A stretch of DNA of 64,000 nt from Fimicolochytrium jonesii (taxonomy: Eukaryota). The notes under the pieces were generated by a model. It was given only the letters and a program-made list of their open reading frames with translations, did no database searches and was not told the origin of the DNA. Of this stretch, positions 34,442 to 44,330 are shown piece by piece. The stretch's first letter is position 1. Each line of letters begins with the position of its first letter. Where the stretch lies: NCBI RefSeq assembly GCF_025526975.1, contig NW_026515669.1, positions 806,001 to 870,000 on the forward strand, given 5' to 3'. The position numbers and the translations under genes were made by a program.

Positions 34442-36430
34442 TCAATCTATGTTTACTAGCATTCTATCATTTGGGCCCGTCTGATCACCAGATGGGCGTG
34501 ATGGCGGCGCTGCATTGAGAAGCATTGGCGGTGACGTCGGTGTCGCTGTGGATATCCTAGATGTTGGAACTATGGCTGCAGCGGCTGCAGCGGCAGCGGC
34601 TTGTAGAGCTGCCTCCTTGGCTCTGTGAGCGCTTATTTCCTGAAGTTTGGTCTGCACGAGACTACCAGTACGGCGGGAAGGGGACGCGTGTCGCGCCGAT
34701 GGATTCTGTTTTCACACGGATATGTCGATTAGCGACATCAGTATGCCAGCGCGAACGAATTGCCATGGGATCTTACATATTTGTCGGCGTCAGCCTTCTG
34801 TTTCTCCCGCAACGCGTTCCACATTTCTGGCCGAACAAACCACGACCCATACACGAGCTTCCCGCTCTCTGCGTCGGGTTGCCCTCCATCATTCTCCTTT
34901 ATTTGCTTTCCCCATGATGCGCCGCCAAAACCTCGAAGACGTTCACGGCGGAAACGCCGCCCTCCTGGCCCGTTGGCAGGATCTGAGCTTGTGAACCCGG
35001 CGTTGGCTAAGGATTTGCACAGATTCTCCGGCGGATACGCGTCTCGTAGGATTCGGATTTTCTGGAGCCGCCCATCCGACCCAGATGCACCATTTCCATT
35101 CGCGTTTGCGGTAGCCTCAAGAAAATTAAGTGATTTGGGCTTACACGCTTCCAAAAGTGCGTCAAATTCACTGTACGCTCCATCACTCCCTGCTTCTCGG
35201 ACTGCTTTCGACGGGTTGGTGATAATCGATCCTGTCTCAACATCGAAAATCGTCGGTGTGTCCAATGCCGCCTGCGCCCAATGCTTCAGATCATAAATCA
35301 CCATCTGCATTTCCTCGAGGGTTTCCCGTGCATGAGGATGTGCATGCTGTGATGACTGTGGCTGTTGAGGAAGGGGATCCTCGTGGTCCATTTCGGTGTG
35401 CTGTTGACCACTAGGCGGGTCATTCGGAATCGTCAGCGCTGTCGACTGTCTCCGCGCGAGGTTATTCCTCCCACGAAAATCCAAAAAATGGGCATATTTT
35501 GCAGCTGGTGAGAGTTCGGGCACCTCCTTGCTCTTGGCTGCGGCGCGAGCAGCCTCCTCTGTGAATTGGGGGTGCTGCTTCAGTATTTTGCGCCCGTTGT
35601 GGCTGCCCATGCACTGCATACCTCGGTCCGCAATCTGATTCAGCCTCTCCCCATCCCCTACTATCTCGTGTTCAGAAATTGGGAAGTCTTCATATCGTGG
35701 TTTTGGCTCCTCGACGTTCGAGCTATGTGTGAAGATGGATAGCAGCCCTTCGCTCCCGAGCTCCTCCTTTGCTAGAAGTAGTGGTGAAACCTTCTCCTGC
35801 TCCACCACCCTCAGCAATGCAGCTCTCTGTTGTGGCGTAAGTCCGGGAAACTCGAGGCCGACTTTCTGTTCGAGTTGACCTGATATCGTGGCTACACGCT
35901 GACGTTTCTTCACCACGCGCGGGAATGCGAGATTGGGCCGCGCTGACAACGTCGGCGAGCTGCAATTCGACGAAGACGCTGACGAGGATGCCCGCGGCCT
36001 AGCTCCGTGCCGGTGGGAATGCCCGGCATGGTGGGGGTCGTGCGTTGCATAGGGAGGTTGGAACAGTGGTGGTTCGAAGGGATTTCGGGGATCTCGCACT
36101 GTGTACAGCTCTGAGAGTGGGAGGCTGGCACATCGGAAAGTGAGAAAGCGAAACCATCCATTAATAGATGGAAAATTGTGACATACGTTGGGGTATGGAC
36201 GTTTCTCAAGGGCCATTCTCGAACGACGAACATGCTGCTGACTGCTCTTTGCGAGGTCTCTCTCCGTCTAGTTGTTTTACTCGTTTACTGACCTGGGCTT
36301 TACTTGCATTCCGACAATGTTGTAGCTTACGAAATGCTGAGTCACAGACATATCGCGCTGTCGAGATGACAATGGGAAGTGTCACTCCGGTTGACCTGCC
36401 TCGTTCTTCCTGATATGTAGTAAAAGACAT
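34442..36430 (-). CDS. Hypothetical multi-exon protein with a FAM47-like YGSWFVRPEMW motif; ends approximate
   Basis: 492-aa core ORF 34738-36216 plus flanking same-strand ORFs and splice signals. Confidence 0.55.
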
Positions 36431-36788
36431 TACGACATCGACCCTTGTCTCGAACGGAGCGTTAGTTAGCCGCGCAAACCGAGGAATATGAGAAGCTTAA
36501 CCTTATTCCACAATCCCCTGCATTATGTCCTTTTCATTGCTTGTAATTTACGAAAAGGTGTATCATGGAACGAATAAAGCACAATACCCGTGCATGCCCC
36601 GTCGTCCAACACCTTCTCAGCAAAAGCGTTCATCCTTCCGAAGTGCATCGTCTCTTTCCGCATATTTCTTCTCTTCTGGAGTCATCCGGCGTTGGAATCA
36701 AACAATTTTCACCCTCTGGCTTGCACGCTCGTAGCGGGATTGGCGACGGTCGCCTTCCTAGAGCTTGCGTCGTTACGGACGGATCAAA

Positions 36789-39700
36789 ATGTTGAGAAGC
36801 GCATTTCTGGCCTTTGCTTTCTGCATTTTGTCCTCGCCCAACGCGCTGTCTAGAAATGCCACACCTCGAATAGTCCGTAGTAGTGGAAATTCACCATTTG
36901 CACCGTCGACTACCGATGAAGCCCTCAGCGAATCAGATCAGCGAAACGAACTTCTGCGAACCCCAGAGCCATCCGTCCCACTGAACACGCTTCATCAAAG
37001 ACAATCGTCTTTACCGACTCTTGTCTTTTCTTTCGTCGTGCCGAGTCTGGATCAAACCTTCGCCCCTCTCAAAGACCTTTTTCGCGTGGTCGTGGACGAT
37101 CTGCAGGCGCAGGGAGTTCTGTCTGGGGCGAATATTCTTGTACAGCCGAACACTACGGGACAATCACGGACAGCTGTTGTGGGATCCATCGTGAATGTTG
37201 CTACAGTGGACCCGTCATTAGGGGTAATAGGTGCGAATCAAGACAGGGCCGTGCCCACTTTGGCAATGGATCAATGTTCGAGTCGCTCACTTTGACATAT
37301 TGGCTATGCACTTGGCTATGCAATCGCAGATTTGTCACCATATCCGCTTGATGCGGCTTCATTAGCAAGTCTTTTCGCATTTCCCTTATGCGAACCGCGA
37401 GGTGAGATTGGACTTACCACTCAGCGTTCATGAACAGTGACCTAAGAGAATCGGATTCAGCGGACTTTCAAGAACTTTCTGATGCGGATACCTACACGAC
37501 ACTGTTCCGCACGACAACAGACGACTCTCTGCGCGATGCTCCGGTGTTGGACTTCGTAGCTGACCAAGGGTGGCCGCAAATCACAAATCTATACACAAGT
37601 AGTTCGAGAACAGTGAATGGGCATAAACACGTAACAAATCGTCTAACAGCTGCGTCCGATATCAGGTTTTGTGAACAGACGAATGAATGTTTCCGAGTCT
37701 GCTTCAAGCATCCCCGGTTCGACAGTCATCCTTAAGCGTACGACGAACGCCTCAGCACCGCCAGATTACAGTGATGCTCTAAAAAGGATTCGGAATCTGA
37801 ACACAGGAATCCTCGATTGCGATGTCGACGGTTCAACGCTGCTGGCCTTTCTACAGCAAGCTAGGTACGCACTTAGCTTTCCGTAGTTTATCGCACAGTG
37901 CACCATAACCGCTTACTCACCGCCGGGACACAGATCTCAAAAGATGTTGGGCCCCAACTTCCTCTACATTATTCAGAGGGAAAGTTATTCGTTCATGCGT
38001 CGGCAAATCGCGGCTACAGACCTTGACTTAATCGAAGGGGCTATCATTGTCTCGGAGCCTGTTGGAAAAGGACCCGCGTACAGCTCCCTTATGGCACGTT
38101 GGAATACCAGCATCTTCCGGACCAAGTGAGCTGTGTACCTACTTGATGTTTTCACGGGTTTATTTTGCTCAATGTTCTCTCATATGTCTTTTAAGGTATC
38201 CTCTGCTACGAAATATCGCAACGCCGTCTGCTACATACCTGTACTCTGCTTCATGCCTCGATTTGATGTTAAGAGGTTATGATAGGGTACGTGCAATGTG
38301 GATCAAACCTTTGTTTCTTTCGTTGACATTGACCCGTGAAACACCTGCCCTGTAGGTGTTGCGGTCGAACTCATCATGGAGTTTGTCGACTCTAAGCGCC
38401 GGAGCTCGCGGGCTCCCATCTGGATCCTTGACCTATCCCGACTCCTTCTCGTTTCCAACGGTAGATACGGTGACCGGTAAAATTCTCTTCCACGGGAACA
38501 GTAGAATTGGGTATGAAGTGTGTCCACCGTTTGTGCTAGATTCCTGGTTCATGGAACGACTATTCTGATGATTGAACCCCTACTTTACAGGTTCTATGTA
38601 TTTAGCTACGTGCTTGCGGGAAATCTCGTAGACTTCGCGACTTTGGAAAGTGGCAAGTCACTGAATTACACAGCTCCAATTATGTGGCGCGATGGGGCTG
38701 CAAAACCTTCAGGCTACATCACGACGTTCGAAGGTACGGGATCAATGAGATTCTTTGCTCCGGCAGTTTCATAACGACCCCTTTTCTTTCCGAAATCAGC
38801 CACCGACAGTTTTTGGATCAAAAGCATCCTGATACCAATATTGGTGGCGATTTGCGTTTTTATTCTGCTTGCGGGGCTATGGGTTGTGAGGCATCGGCAT
38901 TTGAAAAAAAAGCGAGAGGCCCAGCCCTCAAAATTGGGTCAAAATGTAAGTGAGAGAACGGTGATTTACCGGTATCGGCGGGTCTAGCTAATCCTGTTTC
39001 TGCAGTTCCAAACGGTGGACATCAAAAGTCCGGCGCAGAAAGCGATTGAAATTTTGCAAGAGTTTCAGACGGACGGCAGAAAACGGAAACTGTCTGGCGC
39101 CGAGGTTGATTTCATCATAGAAGTATTGGGTTCGGGTGCAGCCTTCAACCCCAACATTGACCAGCTGGAGGATGTGGAAGGCGCGAGAGTGGACCATGAA
39201 ACTCGGGCATGGGTGCTGGATTTGCTGGCAGCAACGCCTGGCCAACAACCGCCGCAACCGACACTGGCGGGAGGGCCAGGTTCCAATCGCGGTGGATCCT
39301 CAACGGCATCCGACACTCACGTCGCTGGTGTACTCGACACTCGGCGAAACAGTCAGAAAAATAAGAAAGTTAGCATAGCCTACACCTCGCGAAGAAGTGT
39401 TAACGATCCCAACAAGCAGCCCAATTCCATTGTGAGCACCCGAGAGGATATGCAGCAGGGCTCGGGATCTCTATCGATACACTCTAGGCACCATAGAAGT
39501 GGATCTCCGACCGCTGCGGATGGGTCAAGAAGCTTTCCTCGAGCCGGCACACCCGGTGCACCTGAAGATGAAGGATTCCACACATCATCAAAAACATCTC
39601 ACAACGGGGTGATCCCCATGCTTCCAACCATCTCGTCAATGGAGGTTGTGAAGATCGAAGAGTACTTGAATCTCTGGTACAGATCATGGAACTTCGACAT

Positions 39701-41305
39701 GGTGAGCAATCCGTCAGCTGCCTAATCGTTCCTCGCAGTTTCTTACTCATTGCCAACCACAGTTCAACTTCGCAGAGCTCACAAACGGGCACCCATTACT
39801 ATACTCCGGTGTGCATCTTTTGGAAAACAATGAGGCTTTGCAGTGCCTCCAGCTGAATCCACAGACGTTCAGACACTGGCTGCTGGTAAACTCTTATTCT
39901 GCCCTATGGCTGTAAGCATCAAGATGGATTTACTGAGATCCCTTGTCTCGCCCCAGCTGATGGAGTCACAATATCATTCACATCCATATCACAACGCGGC
40001 ACATGCAGCGGACGTCCTGCATGCTATCAATCAACTGCTGCTAGATGATCAACTGAAGACCCAATATACCCCGATTGAAGCTTTTGCCCTAATGTTGGGG
40101 GCCATTGGACACGACATAGATCACCCGGGATACAATAATGCTTTTCTCGTCAAAAGTCGACATCCTTGGGCTATACTATACTGGTATGGAATGGTGGTTC
40201 ATTTGGAACGCCTCAGTTGCGTCTCTGACCGATGTTTCCTTTTGCAGCGATACAAGTGTTCTAGAGCTACATCATTGCGCGCACCTTTTCACCATGACTC
40301 TCGGCTCCCAGTGTGACATTTTCGCCGAGTTCTGTGCGGAAGAATACGATGAGATTCGAAAACTTGTCATCAAACTGATCTTGGCAACTGACATGGGAAA
40401 GGTATCATACTCGTCCCCAAAACCGTCGAGATGTAGGATTCCTAACCCGCATGTCCACCAACCAGCATTTTGAGTATATCAACAAGTTCAAGTCGAGGAT
40501 ATCAACCGGAACACTGACGTTCGGCATGGAACTCAATCCGGATAACAAGGTTGCGGTGGCAGAAATCGCCATGAAATGCTCGGACTTATGCAACCCTACG
40601 AAAATATTCCCACTCTCTAAAAAGTGGACCGACGCTGTCATGGAAGAGTTTTATCTCCAGGGTGACCGCGAACGGGAGCTGGGGTTGCCGGTCTCGCAGT
40701 TCATGGACCGCAACAATACCAACGTTCCCAAATGCCAGGTGCGGAACATCAGTCGCGAGTTCTGTCATCTTTCGATAGCCACTAACGAGTCTGTCTCCTG
40801 TTCGTAGATTGGTTTCATAGATTTCCTGGTTGCACCGCTGTTCGACAGCTGGAACACTTTCCGCAATCACGACGATAAGACGACAAGGCTTATCGTGGAG
40901 CTCGGGAAGAACCGTGGATCATGGGCAGCATTGGCAGCCCATCATACACCTCAGAGCTCTGTATTTGGGCAGTCGCAGTCGCGATTCACGGCAAGTCGTC
41001 AGCAGCTTCCTAGCACTCCGAGCATACCAAATCCTCCTAGTATGCAGGGGAGCGGAAGCATCAATCAGGCAGACCTGCCGCCACAGAGGTCGAACATCTT
41101 GGGATTAGGATCGAAACGCAACAGTGTGGTGGTTGATATCCCAACTGGCATACCGTCCATGTCGCGAGCCGGATCGCAATTTGCATCTTTGGCTCGGCGG
41201 ATGTCGTCGTTCGAACTCTTGACCTCACGGTCGGAAGGCATAAAGGACAACGGACCCTTGCTGATAGAGCCCACTGACGTGAAAGTTGGCGGCGATGCCG
41301 TTTGA
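36789..41305 (+). CDS. Single-pass receptor-type 3',5'-cyclic nucleotide phosphodiesterase: signal peptide, ANF-receptor/Venus-flytrap ectodomain, TM helix, PDE8-like linker, class I PDE domain
   Basis: Signal MLRSAFLAFAFCILSSPNALS; VFT hallmark ELSDADTYTTLFRT...VLDFVADQGWPQITNLY; TM ILIPILVAICVFILLAGLWVV followed by RHRHLKKKR; linker DIKSPAQKAIEIL; PDE motifs YHNAAHAADV, HDIDHPG, VLELHH, ILATDM, KCSDL, EEFYLQGDRE and Q|IGFIDFLV. Confidence 0.85.
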
Positions 41306-41974
41306 TTGGCATCTCCCAAGTCCATTTTTGGAGGTTACCTTGCATTTACACTCGCCTTTCAGATGCTCTTGTAAATATGTGGCTATCATAAATATGTATA
41401 TTGCGCTCAGACGAGGAAAAAACGAAACGAGAAGCAAGCAATTCTGGAGGGTGTCTGAGAAATGGCGTTCGGCTATCCCGGCGGTCACTCGTCGCGACAT
41501 ATCGCCCTGGGAACGTAATTTCCCGCAACACCCTTAATTCTAAGGGCGAATAAGCTTTGCCAACGGTGCGAAGGGAGTACTGTGTCCAGGTCTTTTGTAG
41601 GCTATTGTGGCCTTCTAGAAAACGCAAACCTGTCAAAATCGAGGTGGAGCTATGATCCATGAGCATGCGCGCTTAGGTAAACCGTCTGTATAAACTCCGC
41701 CAGCTAAGGTTTGTGATAAGACCCTCTATTTACTCGCATGGCGTCAAAATCAGAACAATAACAACTGTGCTTCACGCCGAAGGCAGAAAAGTCAGACCAA
41801 CGACGGTCTGCTTTCCTATATATAGTTAGCCCTCAGAAAAAGCCGGCCAGCAGAACCTTTGATCTGAGCCGTCCGGAAGCGCAGTTTGAAGTGGGTGTTG
41901 CAGCGGCATCGGGAAAACCATATCGTTAGCAATTCGAAAAGATTTGAAGAGCTTCATAAGGGATTCGAAGCGAG

Positions 41975-44330
41975 ATGGACAGCATCAGTAAATCCTTCAG
42001 TCGCCGATTCGGGACCAAGTCGATGGCGGAGACCGAGGGTCTCGGAAAGGTCAAGAAGCCATCGCTTCTGCCCCCACGCAACGGCGACACCTTATGGGAG
42101 AGGGCCACCAAATTCTACCTCATCCCAGAGGGAGATTTTATGCGTGTCTGGGAAGAGGTCATGGTGTTCGTTGCCATTGTCAATGCCATTCTGGTGTCCT
42201 TTATGGCCGCCTTTCAGTACCATTCGACTGCGGCTTGGGTCGTCAGCTATATCATCGACATCTTATTTGTTGCGGACATGTACATCAAGTTTCACATAGC
42301 TTACTTGGTGGGAGGTTTTTGGGTCGTCTTCCCGGCGGAAATGGCCTTGCACTACCTTCGGTCTTGGGAGTTCATCTTTGACGTGCTTATCAATTTCCCG
42401 GTCGATATCGTCGCATTTGCATACGTTGGCAAAAGCTACGGACAGACGAAGCTATCCTTGGTTCGTCTTTGGAAGTATCTGCGTACGGGTCGTATCATCA
42501 TTTACTTCAGACGACAAGAGAGCAAGTTGCACGCAAGTTTCAGAACGCAAGTCGTGAAGTTCATCAGCTATCTCGTCGTCCTGACACACACCGTCGCCTG
42601 CATTTGGTTCACAATCGCGTGTTCGGGAGAAATTGATTGGCCGATGGATTTGACAACTTCCTGCAGTGTCGAGTCTTGGATGTTGAAATCTCGCGATATT
42701 GATTTTGTGGACTTGGGTTTGGGCGAGGTGTATATCGCATGTATATACTGGGCTGGTAAGTCCGGTTTGGCTTCCAAAACTCCGAAGAAATTGCCGCACT
42801 CTTACGCTCCTTGTTGAACAGTCATCACCATGACTACGGTCGGATTCGGGGATGTTCGCGCGAACAATGCCTCCGAACGAGTATTTGCAATGTTCACCGC
42901 CTTCTGCGGCATCATGTTCTACGGATACATCAACGGCACAATCACTTCCACTCTGTCCAACATGGATTCACGTAGGGTGGCCTACCAGCAGCGCCTCGAT
43001 GCCGTCAAGCAGTACATGACGGACCGCGATATGGACCCGGACATGAAGGAGCGTGTGTTGATCTACTACGACTATGTTTGGGAGAGGAACAGGGGTATCG
43101 ATGTTCGAGGACTATTTGTGGACATGCCCTCAACGTTCAAGCAGGAAGTAGCCTTGAGCTTGAATAACCAGATCATTGATAATGTATGTGTCTGATTCGT
43201 TTTTTTCGTCCGTCACTGTCGGTACTGATGAGAATCCCCCCAGGCCATCATTTTCAAAGAATGTTCCATCGGATTCCGTCGCATGATTGCAATTGACATG
43301 AAGCTCTTCCTCTTCACCGCAAACGAATACGTGGTTCATCGCGGAGATCTCGGATTGGAAATGTTCTTCATCACTCAGGGACGTATTGACATCTATGCGA
43401 CCGAGGACCTGCGAAGGCCGACTGCGTCCTTAATTGAGGGTGCCTACTTTGGTAAGCTGAGGACGCATCTCATGAGGAAACTCAAACTCTGTGTTCTGAT
43501 ATCCTTGGACCCATTGTCAACAGGTGAATTCTGTGTTGTCTTGGGAAGTCGCCATGAGTACTCCGCTCGAGCGGTTTGCAACACGGATATTTACGTCTTC
43601 AGCAAAGATGATCTTGAGCACGCCTTCCAGGCATATCCCGAAGACCGTGAAGTTGTCGTTGCAGCAACCAAGAAACGCTACCAGGCGCATCTACAGGCCA
43701 AGCGGTCGCGAGGAGGTGCTGGCGCTACTAATCGCGGTATGATTTTGGACGAGCTGGAGGATCTCGAACAAGAATTTGGAGTGAAAGGGAGCGTCATGAA
43801 GACCGATACGCCCGTTCGTCTTGCTGGCGACAAGGCTCCCAGTTTGCGGGACCTCAGCCAAGCGCCTATAGGTTCGCGACCTCTTGATGAGGCGGACTTG
43901 GAGGGCGCGGTGATTCCGCTGGAAGATGATAACAAAAGAAAGGAGACCAAAATAAAGCCTGCCAATTCGGGAGCTGGATATGCGCTTATGGACAAAACTA
44001 TGGCGAAAGCTTTGAGCCAGAGCAGCTTGAGTCCTGCGCGTAAGGCTATGGCCCGTAGCACGGTATGGAAATCGAGCTTGCGGCACATTTGTGGAGTTCA
44101 ACGGTCTCTCACCTGTTTGTTGCCAACACATTTAGGCGAGTATCGTCGATATCGGCAAGAGCCGGCAAGAGCGAAAAGAAAGCACCGATTCCCGATCGGA
44201 GTCTTCTGCAGCTGGGGTGCGCTCCGGTTCGAGCAGGAATCAGTTAAGCGGCGCACCTCAGCGTGAGAGCGAGTCTCCTGCGCCGGACCACAATCCAACG
44301 GGGGCGCCCGATGGACCTGGAAATATGTGA
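41975..44330 (+). CDS. 6TM cyclic-nucleotide-binding-domain K+ channel (CNG/HCN/EAG superfamily)
   Basis: S1-S6 segments; S4 LVRLWKYLRTGRI; pore YWA|VITMTTVGFGD; C-linker KQYM..RV..YYDYVW; CNBD VVHRGDLGLEMFFITQGRI..EGAYF|GEFC. Confidence 0.92.

What the first reader, a model, noticed from the sequence alone, without database searches (positions are those of the whole stretch)
36789..41305. Putative receptor phosphodiesterase: Venus-flytrap ectodomain fused through one TM helix to a class I PDE
Seen: the exons splice in frame across the key junctions (ITTFE|ATDSFW via intron 38734-38799; KLGQN|FQTVDIKSP via intron 38946-39005). They link a signal peptide, an ANF-receptor-like ectodomain (LSDADTYTTLFRT..QGW..LY), a roughly 21-aa TM helix with a basic stop-transfer, a PDE8-like helical linker and a PDE domain with intact metal-binding motifs. 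Established: this ectodomain normally drives receptor guanylyl cyclases, class C GPCRs and iGluRs, while class I PDEs are usually soluble and controlled by GAF, PAS or UCR domains or by G proteins. Inference: an extracellular ligand such as an amino acid or other small molecule could directly regulate cAMP/cGMP hydrolysis, the mirror image of a receptor cyclase, possibly in zoospore chemosensing. I know of no characterised protein with this architecture.
Basis: partly seen in the sequence, partly recalled or inferred. Interest (0 to 1): 0.92.

Follow-up and report, generated by a model that had tools for sequence, protein, structure and literature searches.

The report
Chytrid receptor-type cyclic-AMP phosphodiesterase
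This fungal gene is predicted to make one protein that joins an outside "Venus flytrap" sensor domain, through one membrane helix, to an enzyme domain that likely destroys cyclic AMP; database relatives across swimming-spore (chytrid) fungi share the layout, which would let an outside signal directly tune the messenger's breakdown.

Summary
Fifteen exons (36789-41305, +) splice through 14 short GT-AG introns into a 1182-aa frame without stops: signal-like N-terminus, ectodomain, one TM helix, helical linker, class I PDE. The model is collinear with Spizellomyces SPPG_02406 (43% identity, 45% across the TM junction). 19 of 66 PDE relatives carry both PF01094 and PF00233. They span four chytrid orders and one blastoclad and form one PDE clade. 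An orthologue's ectodomain folds as a Venus flytrap (GABA-B2, Z 30). All checked catalytic residues are intact; PDE4/7/8 are the closest solved enzymes.

Against: the database model of this very locus is PDE-only (452 aa), and splicing was not tested on transcripts. The class C amino-acid-binding signature is 1 of 4 here and 4 of 4 only in the blastoclad member. About 130 disordered residues separate linker and PDE.

Best reading: a conserved, undescribed single-pass receptor-PDE family, likely ligand-regulated, ligand unknown. Fusion real about 0.9; ligand control about 0.55. Ten paper searches found no description. Closest known: rhodopsin-PDE and Venus-flytrap receptor cyclases.

The parts
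36789..41305 (+). Whole gene, 15 exons: 36789-37230, 37330-37401, 37461-37598, 37666-37864, 37934-38125, 38196-38286, 38356-38510, 38591-38733, 38800-38945, 39006-39701, 39763-39885, 39957-40183, 40248-40401, 40466-40738, 40808-41305; 1182 aa
   Evidence: model; collinear with orthologues exon by exon
36789..36848 (+). Predicted signal peptide (aa 1-20), followed by a low-complexity pro-like stretch to about aa 70
   Evidence: hydropathy only; P0005, P0007 and P0002 have similar N-termini
37008..38733 (+). Venus-flytrap (ANF_receptor, periplasmic-binding-protein type I) ectodomain, aa about 74-477, exons 1-8; 6 N-glycosylation sequons in aa 69-488; conserved C168 and C368
   Evidence: weak PF01094; 38% to P0005; orthologues above cut-off; fold of orthologue
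38734..38799 (+). Intron 8 (66 nt, GT-AG, phase 1) joining ectodomain to the TM exon
38832..38918 (+). Single TM helix (aa 489-507) and basic stop-transfer stretch (aa 508-517)
   Evidence: KD19 2.95; positive-inside in 19 of 21 family members; one helix 480-516 in P0005
38946..39005 (+). Intron 9 (60 nt, GT-AG, phase 0) joining the TM exon to the linker exon
39006..39233 (+). Three-helix juxtamembrane linker (aa 527-602), PDE8-like, common upstream of many class I PDEs
   Evidence: searches (108 of 177 other fetched proteins match; P0050 iE 4.5e-8), (weak Rh-PDE match)
39234..39647 (+). Ser/Gly-rich spacer predicted disordered (aa about 603-740) with an RRxS site at aa 639; Met731 (39618) is where the PDE-only database model starts
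   Evidence: pLDDT<50 for P0005 603-725
39648..40900 (+). Class I PDE catalytic domain (aa 741-1048, exons 10-15) with Y810, H811, H815, H851, D852, H855, E881, H884, T922, D966, N969, Q1017, F1020
40901..41305 (+). Low-complexity C-terminal tail, predicted disordered
   Evidence: on P0005

Best explanation
The gene is predicted to encode a single-pass membrane protein with a Venus-flytrap ectodomain outside and a class I phosphodiesterase inside, and an as yet unknown extracellular ligand likely changes its rate of cyclic-nucleotide (likely cAMP) hydrolysis. Shown here: the in-frame exon chain, the conserved domain order across chytrid orders, the fold of an orthologue's ectodomain and the intact catalytic residues. 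Inferred: the protein dimerises like other Venus-flytrap receptors; ligand binding repacks the TM and the three-helix juxtamembrane linker; the linker's last helix, tethered by a long flexible spacer, caps or releases the active site, as PDE4's UCR2 helix does; phosphorylation of the spacer adds feedback. The ancestral ligand was probably an amino acid (signature intact in the blastoclad member); the chytrid members have rebuilt the pocket.
For: In-frame 15-exon model with no intergenic gap, collinear with orthologues. 19 of 66 PDE relatives carry PF01094+PF00233; 20 of 25 aligned family members hit PF01094 at E<=0.1. All 26 ectodomain-bearing PDE domains among 196 fall in one 35-tip clade; UFBoot 94 on a 55-sequence subset. 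Taxa checked span Spizellomycetales, Rhizophlyctidales, Cladochytriales, Chytridiales and Blastocladiomycota. Ectodomain of P0011: Z 30.0, rmsd 2.9 over 339 residues to GABA-B2; GC-A Z 26.5. Topology: C-flank more basic in 19 of 21; sequons 1.8 vs 0.8 per 100 aa outside vs inside; C168/C368 kept in 19 of 20 and 20 of 21, both lost together in P0015. Catalytic positions kept in 32-35 of 35 clade members. Best solved relatives are cAMP-specific PDE4/8/7 (E 1e-63 to 1e-66) ahead of PDE3/9 (1e-51). P0034 keeps the mGlu3-aligned Ser/Thr/Asp/Tyr. Precedents: a helical linker relays signal in Rh-PDE (PMC7644710, passages); PDE4's capping helix is joined to the catalytic domain by a disordered stretch (PMC13095499, passages).
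Against: No activity, ligand or localisation data. Pocket loops are not conserved: the four signature positions are kept in only 6 of 20, 3 of 22, 2 of 20 and 2 of 20 members, 1 of 4 in this protein. The linker-to-PDE spacer is long (median 132 aa in 28 family members vs 35.5 in 92 other PDEs) and low-confidence in the model, which argues against rigid coupling. The database model of this locus is PDE-only (P0006 = aa 731-1182); one Geranomyces annotation has separate ectodomain and PDE proteins (P0011, P0012). 9 of 35 clade tips show no ectodomain; P0025 is long and has neither ectodomain nor TM; P0026 has ectodomain and PDE but no TM between. Many database members lack a clear signal peptide. 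The linker also sits in soluble GAF-PDEs, so it is not receptor-specific. cAMP preference is inferred from similarity only.
Confidence: 0.52

Rival explanations
1. The fusion is real, but the ectodomain is a ligand-free dimerisation, trafficking or partner-binding module (as recalled for GABA-B2 and iGluR N-terminal domains) that anchors a PDE beside other Venus-flytrap receptors; activity is set from inside, by phosphorylation of the spacer.
For: Pocket loops vary freely across the family; long disordered spacer; RRxS-type sites between linker and PDE in most members inspected; best fold match is GABA-B2 (the top rows are tied within 1-2 Z units, so this is weak). Chytrids encode class C GPCRs with the same domain (PMC3251606, passages).
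Against: A whole 400-residue two-lobed domain was kept from a blastoclad to four chytrid orders; the earliest-branching member keeps a full amino-acid site; variable pockets also fit changing ligands.
Confidence: 0.3
2. It is a classical amino-acid receptor, binding in the cleft as mGlu and T1R receptors do.
For: P0034 aligns to T1R3 and mGlu3 (E 1e-12 to 1e-11) with all four signature residues.
Against: This protein keeps 1 of 4; no Chytridiomycota member keeps more than 1 of 4.
Confidence: 0.1
3. The ectodomain and the PDE are separate products (a secreted or anchored binding protein and a soluble PDE starting at Met731), and the fused models are prediction artefacts.
For: P0006 is identical to aa 731-1182; P0011 and P0012 are split models with adjacent accessions.
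Against: Only 66- and 60-nt introns flank the TM exon and exon 10 is one open frame from linker through Met731. The junction is conserved at 35-52% in all 9 relatives that aligned. P0011 stops where intron 7 lies here; P0012 starts and ends at the positions of introns 10 and 14; P0010 starts at exon 11: signs of fragmentary models. No ectodomain-only protein from this locus appeared among the best 150.
Confidence: 0.07

Closest known systems
Rhodopsin phosphodiesterase (Rh-PDE, Salpingoeca rosetta; PMC7644710, passages read)
   Same: Membrane sensor domain fused through a helical linker to a class I PDE; the third linker helix matches the Rh-PDE linker weakly (7d7q E 0.12, 7d7p E 0.59).
   Different: Light-sensing 8-TM rhodopsin and a 76-residue linker there; here one TM, a 400-residue ectodomain and about 230 residues from TM to PDE.
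Receptor guanylyl cyclases (GC-A/NPR1) and trypanosome receptor adenylyl cyclases (PMC6027212, passages read)
   Same: Venus-flytrap ectodomain, one TM helix, cyclic-nucleotide enzyme inside; GC-A ectodomain Z 26.5.
   Different: They make the messenger; this would destroy it. No kinase-homology or cyclase domain in 25 members scanned.
Class C GPCRs (GABA-B, mGlu, T1R), also present in chytrids (PMC3251606, passages read)
   Same: Same ectodomain fold (Z 26-30); the blastoclad member keeps the amino-acid-binding residues.
   Different: No 7-TM domain or G-protein step; signature lost in the chytrid members.
PDE4/7/8 cAMP phosphodiesterases
   Same: Closest catalytic domains; PDE8-like helical linker.
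   Different: They are soluble, controlled by UCR or REC/PAS regions; none of these Pfam domains found in the family.
Membrane-anchored PDEs: PDE3 and apicomplexan PDEs (PMC10865986, passages read)
   Same: TM helices precede a class I PDE domain.
   Different: Multi-pass anchors with no recognised ligand-binding ectodomain.

Membership tests
Class I cyclic-nucleotide PDE | PF00233 above the curated cut-off | tested here: met
   three exons 52-93 bits; P0006, identical to aa 731-1182, 282 bits vs 24.8
Class I cyclic-nucleotide PDE | Two-metal His/Asp site, catalytic His, invariant Gln and Phe clamp | tested here: met
   identical positions in the PDE4C alignment (role labels recalled)
Class I cyclic-nucleotide PDE | Hydrolyses cAMP or cGMP | not testable with these tools
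   no assay
ANF_receptor / PBP type I Venus flytrap | PF01094 above cut-off | tested here: inconclusive
   window exon alone 17.9 bits (<25.4); orthologues P0002-P0005 42-66 bits
ANF_receptor / PBP type I Venus flytrap | Two-lobed type I fold | tested here: met
   on orthologue P0011 (32% identical to the model): pTM 0.70, Z 30.0, rmsd 2.9 over 339, Foldseek E 1.6e-14
Class C GPCR amino-acid receptors | Ser/Thr/Asp/Tyr amino-acid-binding signature | tested here: not met
   1 of 4 in this protein, 4 of 4 in P0034
Class C GPCR amino-acid receptors | Seven-TM domain | tested here: not met
   one hydropathy peak; no 7tm_3
Receptor guanylyl/adenylyl cyclases | Venus-flytrap ectodomain plus single TM | tested here: met
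Receptor guanylyl/adenylyl cyclases | Class III cyclase domain (with kinase-homology domain in GCs) | tested here: not met
   none in 25 members; PDE instead
Rhodopsin-PDE | 8-TM microbial rhodopsin | tested here: not met
   single TM
Rhodopsin-PDE | Homologous helical linker | tested here: inconclusive
   E 0.12 and 0.59; an unrelated chain scored better, E 0.0055
PDE8 | Helical linker before the catalytic domain | tested here: met
   P0050 iE 4.5e-8, 23.4 bits; best of 210 shuffles 4.9 bits
PDE8 | REC and PAS domains | tested here: not met
   none
PDE4 | UCR1/UCR2 homology | tested here: inconclusive
   no PDE4_UCR hit and no PDE4 long-form chain among the 10 hits; remote homology not excluded
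Ligand-regulated receptor enzyme | Dimer whose activity changes on ligand binding | not testable with these tools
   no assay; not modelled

The most novel reading that the evidence does not exclude
Zoosporic fungi have a receptor class not described before: single-pass 'receptor phosphodiesterases' in which an extracellular chemical switches cAMP destruction directly, with no G protein, the mirror image of receptor cyclases. It arose once from an amino-acid-sensing Venus flytrap, is at least as old as the chytrid-blastoclad split, and may be one of several ectodomain types (cysteine-rich, nucleotidase-like) on the same linker-PDE chassis.
Probability: 0.5. Interest if true: 0.92.

Novelty: new variant of a known kind. 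Interest (0 to 1): 0.78.

Why it matters
Class I PDEs are normally controlled from inside the cell; the one membrane-sensor fusion I found in print is light-gated Rh-PDE. A conserved Venus-flytrap-TM-PDE family would add a chemically gated counterpart and a G-protein-free way to lower cAMP. It offers a concrete candidate for how zoospores or germlings sense their surroundings. It is directly testable: one named orthologue (SPPG_02406), a catalytic readout, and a blastoclad member whose pocket predicts an amino-acid ligand. It could also serve as a chassis for chemogenetic control of cAMP. The parts are known and the architecture already lies unremarked in public protein records; the receptor behaviour is what would be new.

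Tried and rejected
RNA: no RNA holder was listed for 36700-41400, so no reads were laid; no evidence either way. No whole genome is held, so paralogues, partner cyclases and synteny were not checked. The spliced window protein itself was not folded; folds are of orthologues P0005 and P0011. Full-length Foldseek returned only PDE chains. The window's linker alone found nothing in the PDB at E<=10; the linker profile's top hit, a cGAS-like chain, is taken as chance. ESM Atlas: top hits ANF_receptor/NPR3 at 0.87-0.88, a lead only. None of the 130 new proteins matched the ectodomain profile; only the best 150 of 17,679 hits were shown, so members elsewhere are not excluded. No Rhizophydiales or Allomyces member appeared; that search is word-limited. 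Alternative intron 1 and intron 3 boundaries were considered by eye; none fitted the orthologues better. Earlier findings: nothing. The primary PDE4 long-form paper is not held; a review was used. The script stopped on an error after printing the residue table; the rest was rerun.
Full report
OBSERVATION. The region is a compact fungal gene on the + strand. A 15-exon model from ATG 36789 to TGA 41305 has 14 GT-AG introns of 59-99 nt and reads 1182 aa without a stop; retaining any one intron gives a premature stop. The protein has a hydrophobic N-terminus, one strong hydrophobic segment (aa 489-507, KD19 2.95; next best 1.57) and a basic stretch behind it. Single exons hit PF00233 well above cut-off and PF01094 weakly. 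The intron 1 boundary leaves Asp where 17 of 20 family members have Gly, and the exon 3/4 boundary has near-equivalent alternatives, so those two joints are uncertain by a residue or so.

IS THE FUSION REAL? A search with exon 10 returned 6 proteins, all from Spizellomycetales chytrids; four carry PF01094+PF00233. The model aligns to P0005 (S. punctatus SPPG_02406) in one piece over aa 60-1179 at 43%, 38% in the ectodomain, 45% across the ectodomain-TM-linker junction and 68% in the PDE; all 15 exons match their counterparts. Against this, P0006, a 452-aa database protein, is identical to aa 731-1182, so the public model of this locus lacks the ectodomain, and one Geranomyces annotation has separate ectodomain (P0011) and PDE (P0012) entries. 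Those split models end or begin at positions where this gene has introns, and exon 10 is one open frame from the linker through Met731, with no room for an intergenic gap. I put the fusion at about 0.9. It has not been seen on a transcript.

A FAMILY. A PDE-domain search gave 66 proteins at E<=1e-40; 19 carry both Pfam domains, all from zoosporic fungi. Names checked fall in Spizellomycetales, Rhizophlyctidales, Cladochytriales, Chytridiales and Blastocladiomycota (Sorochytrium). In a tree of 196 PDE domains (P0006, P0009, P0013 and domains under 230 aa left out), all 26 with an ectodomain match fall in one clade of 35 tips (FastTree 0.82). IQ-TREE on 55 of them gives UFBoot 94 for this clade and 97 for its Chytridiomycota core, with Sorochytrium branching first (rooted arbitrarily on an animal PDE). 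Of the 9 tips without an ectodomain, 8 are short, marked partial or start at the TM or linker; P0025 is a real or mis-modelled exception. P0026 lacks a TM between ectodomain and linker. None of 130 further proteins from the profile search matched the ectodomain profile.

ECTODOMAIN. The model of orthologue P0011 (pTM 0.70) matches GABA-B2 (Z 30.0, rmsd 2.9, 339 residues), plant GLR3.4, T1R, GC-A, NPR-C and mGlu receptors (Z 26-29). This half looks extracellular: the TM C-flank is more basic in 19 of 21 members, sequons are 1.8 vs 0.8 per 100 aa (6 vs 1 in this protein), and two cysteines (C168, C368) are kept almost throughout and lost together in P0015, suggesting a disulfide. Clear signal peptides are seen only in this protein and three Spizellomycetales models; most other database N-termini are unclear. 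The Sorochytrium ectodomain aligns to T1R3 and mGlu3 and keeps the four residues that, from recalled knowledge, hold an amino acid in mGlu3. This protein keeps 1 of 4 and no Chytridiomycota member more than 1 (two of the 22 rows are N-terminally truncated). An amino-acid ligand is plausible for the ancestor, not for this protein.

CYTOPLASMIC PART. Behind the TM lie three helices. A profile of them matches 108 of 177 other fetched proteins and one of 21 named animal PDEs, a PDE8-type protein (iE 4.5e-8; best of 210 shuffles 4.9 bits vs 23.4). The third helix weakly matches the Rh-PDE linker, a lead only. A spacer of median 132 aa (35.5 in other PDEs), low-confidence in the model, follows; it carries RRxS-type sites. 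The PDE domain keeps every metal-binding and substrate-clamp position checked, in 32-35 of 35 clade members, and is closest to cAMP-specific PDE4/8/7. cAMP preference is therefore likely, not shown.

MECHANISM. Most likely (0.52): a single-pass, probably dimeric receptor-PDE in which an unknown ligand alters hydrolysis through the TM and linker helices. The long spacer rules against a rigid rod, but PDE4's capping helix is also joined by a disordered stretch (PMC13095499, passages), and Rh-PDE is proposed to signal through a helical linker without direct domain contact (PMC7644710, passages). Main rival (0.3): an unliganded ectodomain that anchors or pairs the PDE, with control by phosphorylation. 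Classical amino-acid receptor 0.1; split genes 0.07. A role in zoospore behaviour is untested; cyclic-nucleotide control of zoospore swimming is known in Blastocladiella (PMC4046227, passages), and a CNG-type channel gene starts about 0.7 kb downstream, with synteny unchecked.

NOVELTY. Ten full-text searches of the open library found no description of this architecture; I saw listings and abstract openings, and passages of six papers. Two papers hold both an ANF and a PDE family term; by title they are ligand-discovery studies and were not read. Subscription papers and supplements of chytrid genome papers were not seen and might list the architecture. The proteins are already in NCBI/UniRef under automatic PDE names. 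It fails membership of receptor cyclases, class C GPCRs and Rh-PDE, but would work like their mirror image. Verdict: real, conserved and apparently undescribed; a new variant of the sensor-fused PDE kind that would rank as a new receptor class if ligand control is shown. Interest 0.78.

Noticed in passing
window 41960-44266 (+): Cyclic-nucleotide-gated-type channel gene (Ion_trans, GFGD pore motif at 42836, cNMP_binding) starts about 670 bp after the PDE stop on the same strand; a possible effector, synteny unchecked.
   Followed up: partly
P0092, P0111, P0172 (unnamed records): A nearby PDE clade has cysteine-rich Ephrin_rec_like repeats (P0111 also a weak 5'-nucleotidase C-terminal hit), one TM helix, the same linker and a PDE: a possible second single-pass receptor-PDE type.
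   Followed up: partly
P0076 (unnamed record): Sister to the family (UFBoot 91), with a 340-aa N-terminal region, one TM, linker and PDE, but no ectodomain-profile or Pfam hit; may be a highly diverged ectodomain.
   Followed up: no
P0044, P0045, P0052, P0077: Other unusual PDE fusions: P-type ATPase+PDE, Ion_trans+PDE, kinase+AAA+GAF+PDE; may be real or gene-model fusions.
   Followed up: no
window 36990-37010 and orthologues: A dibasic KR/RR site precedes the first ectodomain strand in 8 of 14 relatives inspected, like a fungal pro-peptide cleavage site; this protein has a single Arg there.
   Followed up: partly
window 37300-37322: An 11-nt tandem duplication inside intron 1, the longest intron (99 nt).
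   Followed up: no
   Followed up: no
window 34738-36267 (-): Divergently oriented 509-codon frame 522 bp upstream, no Pfam hit above cut-off; other neighbours are housekeeping-type genes.
   Followed up: no
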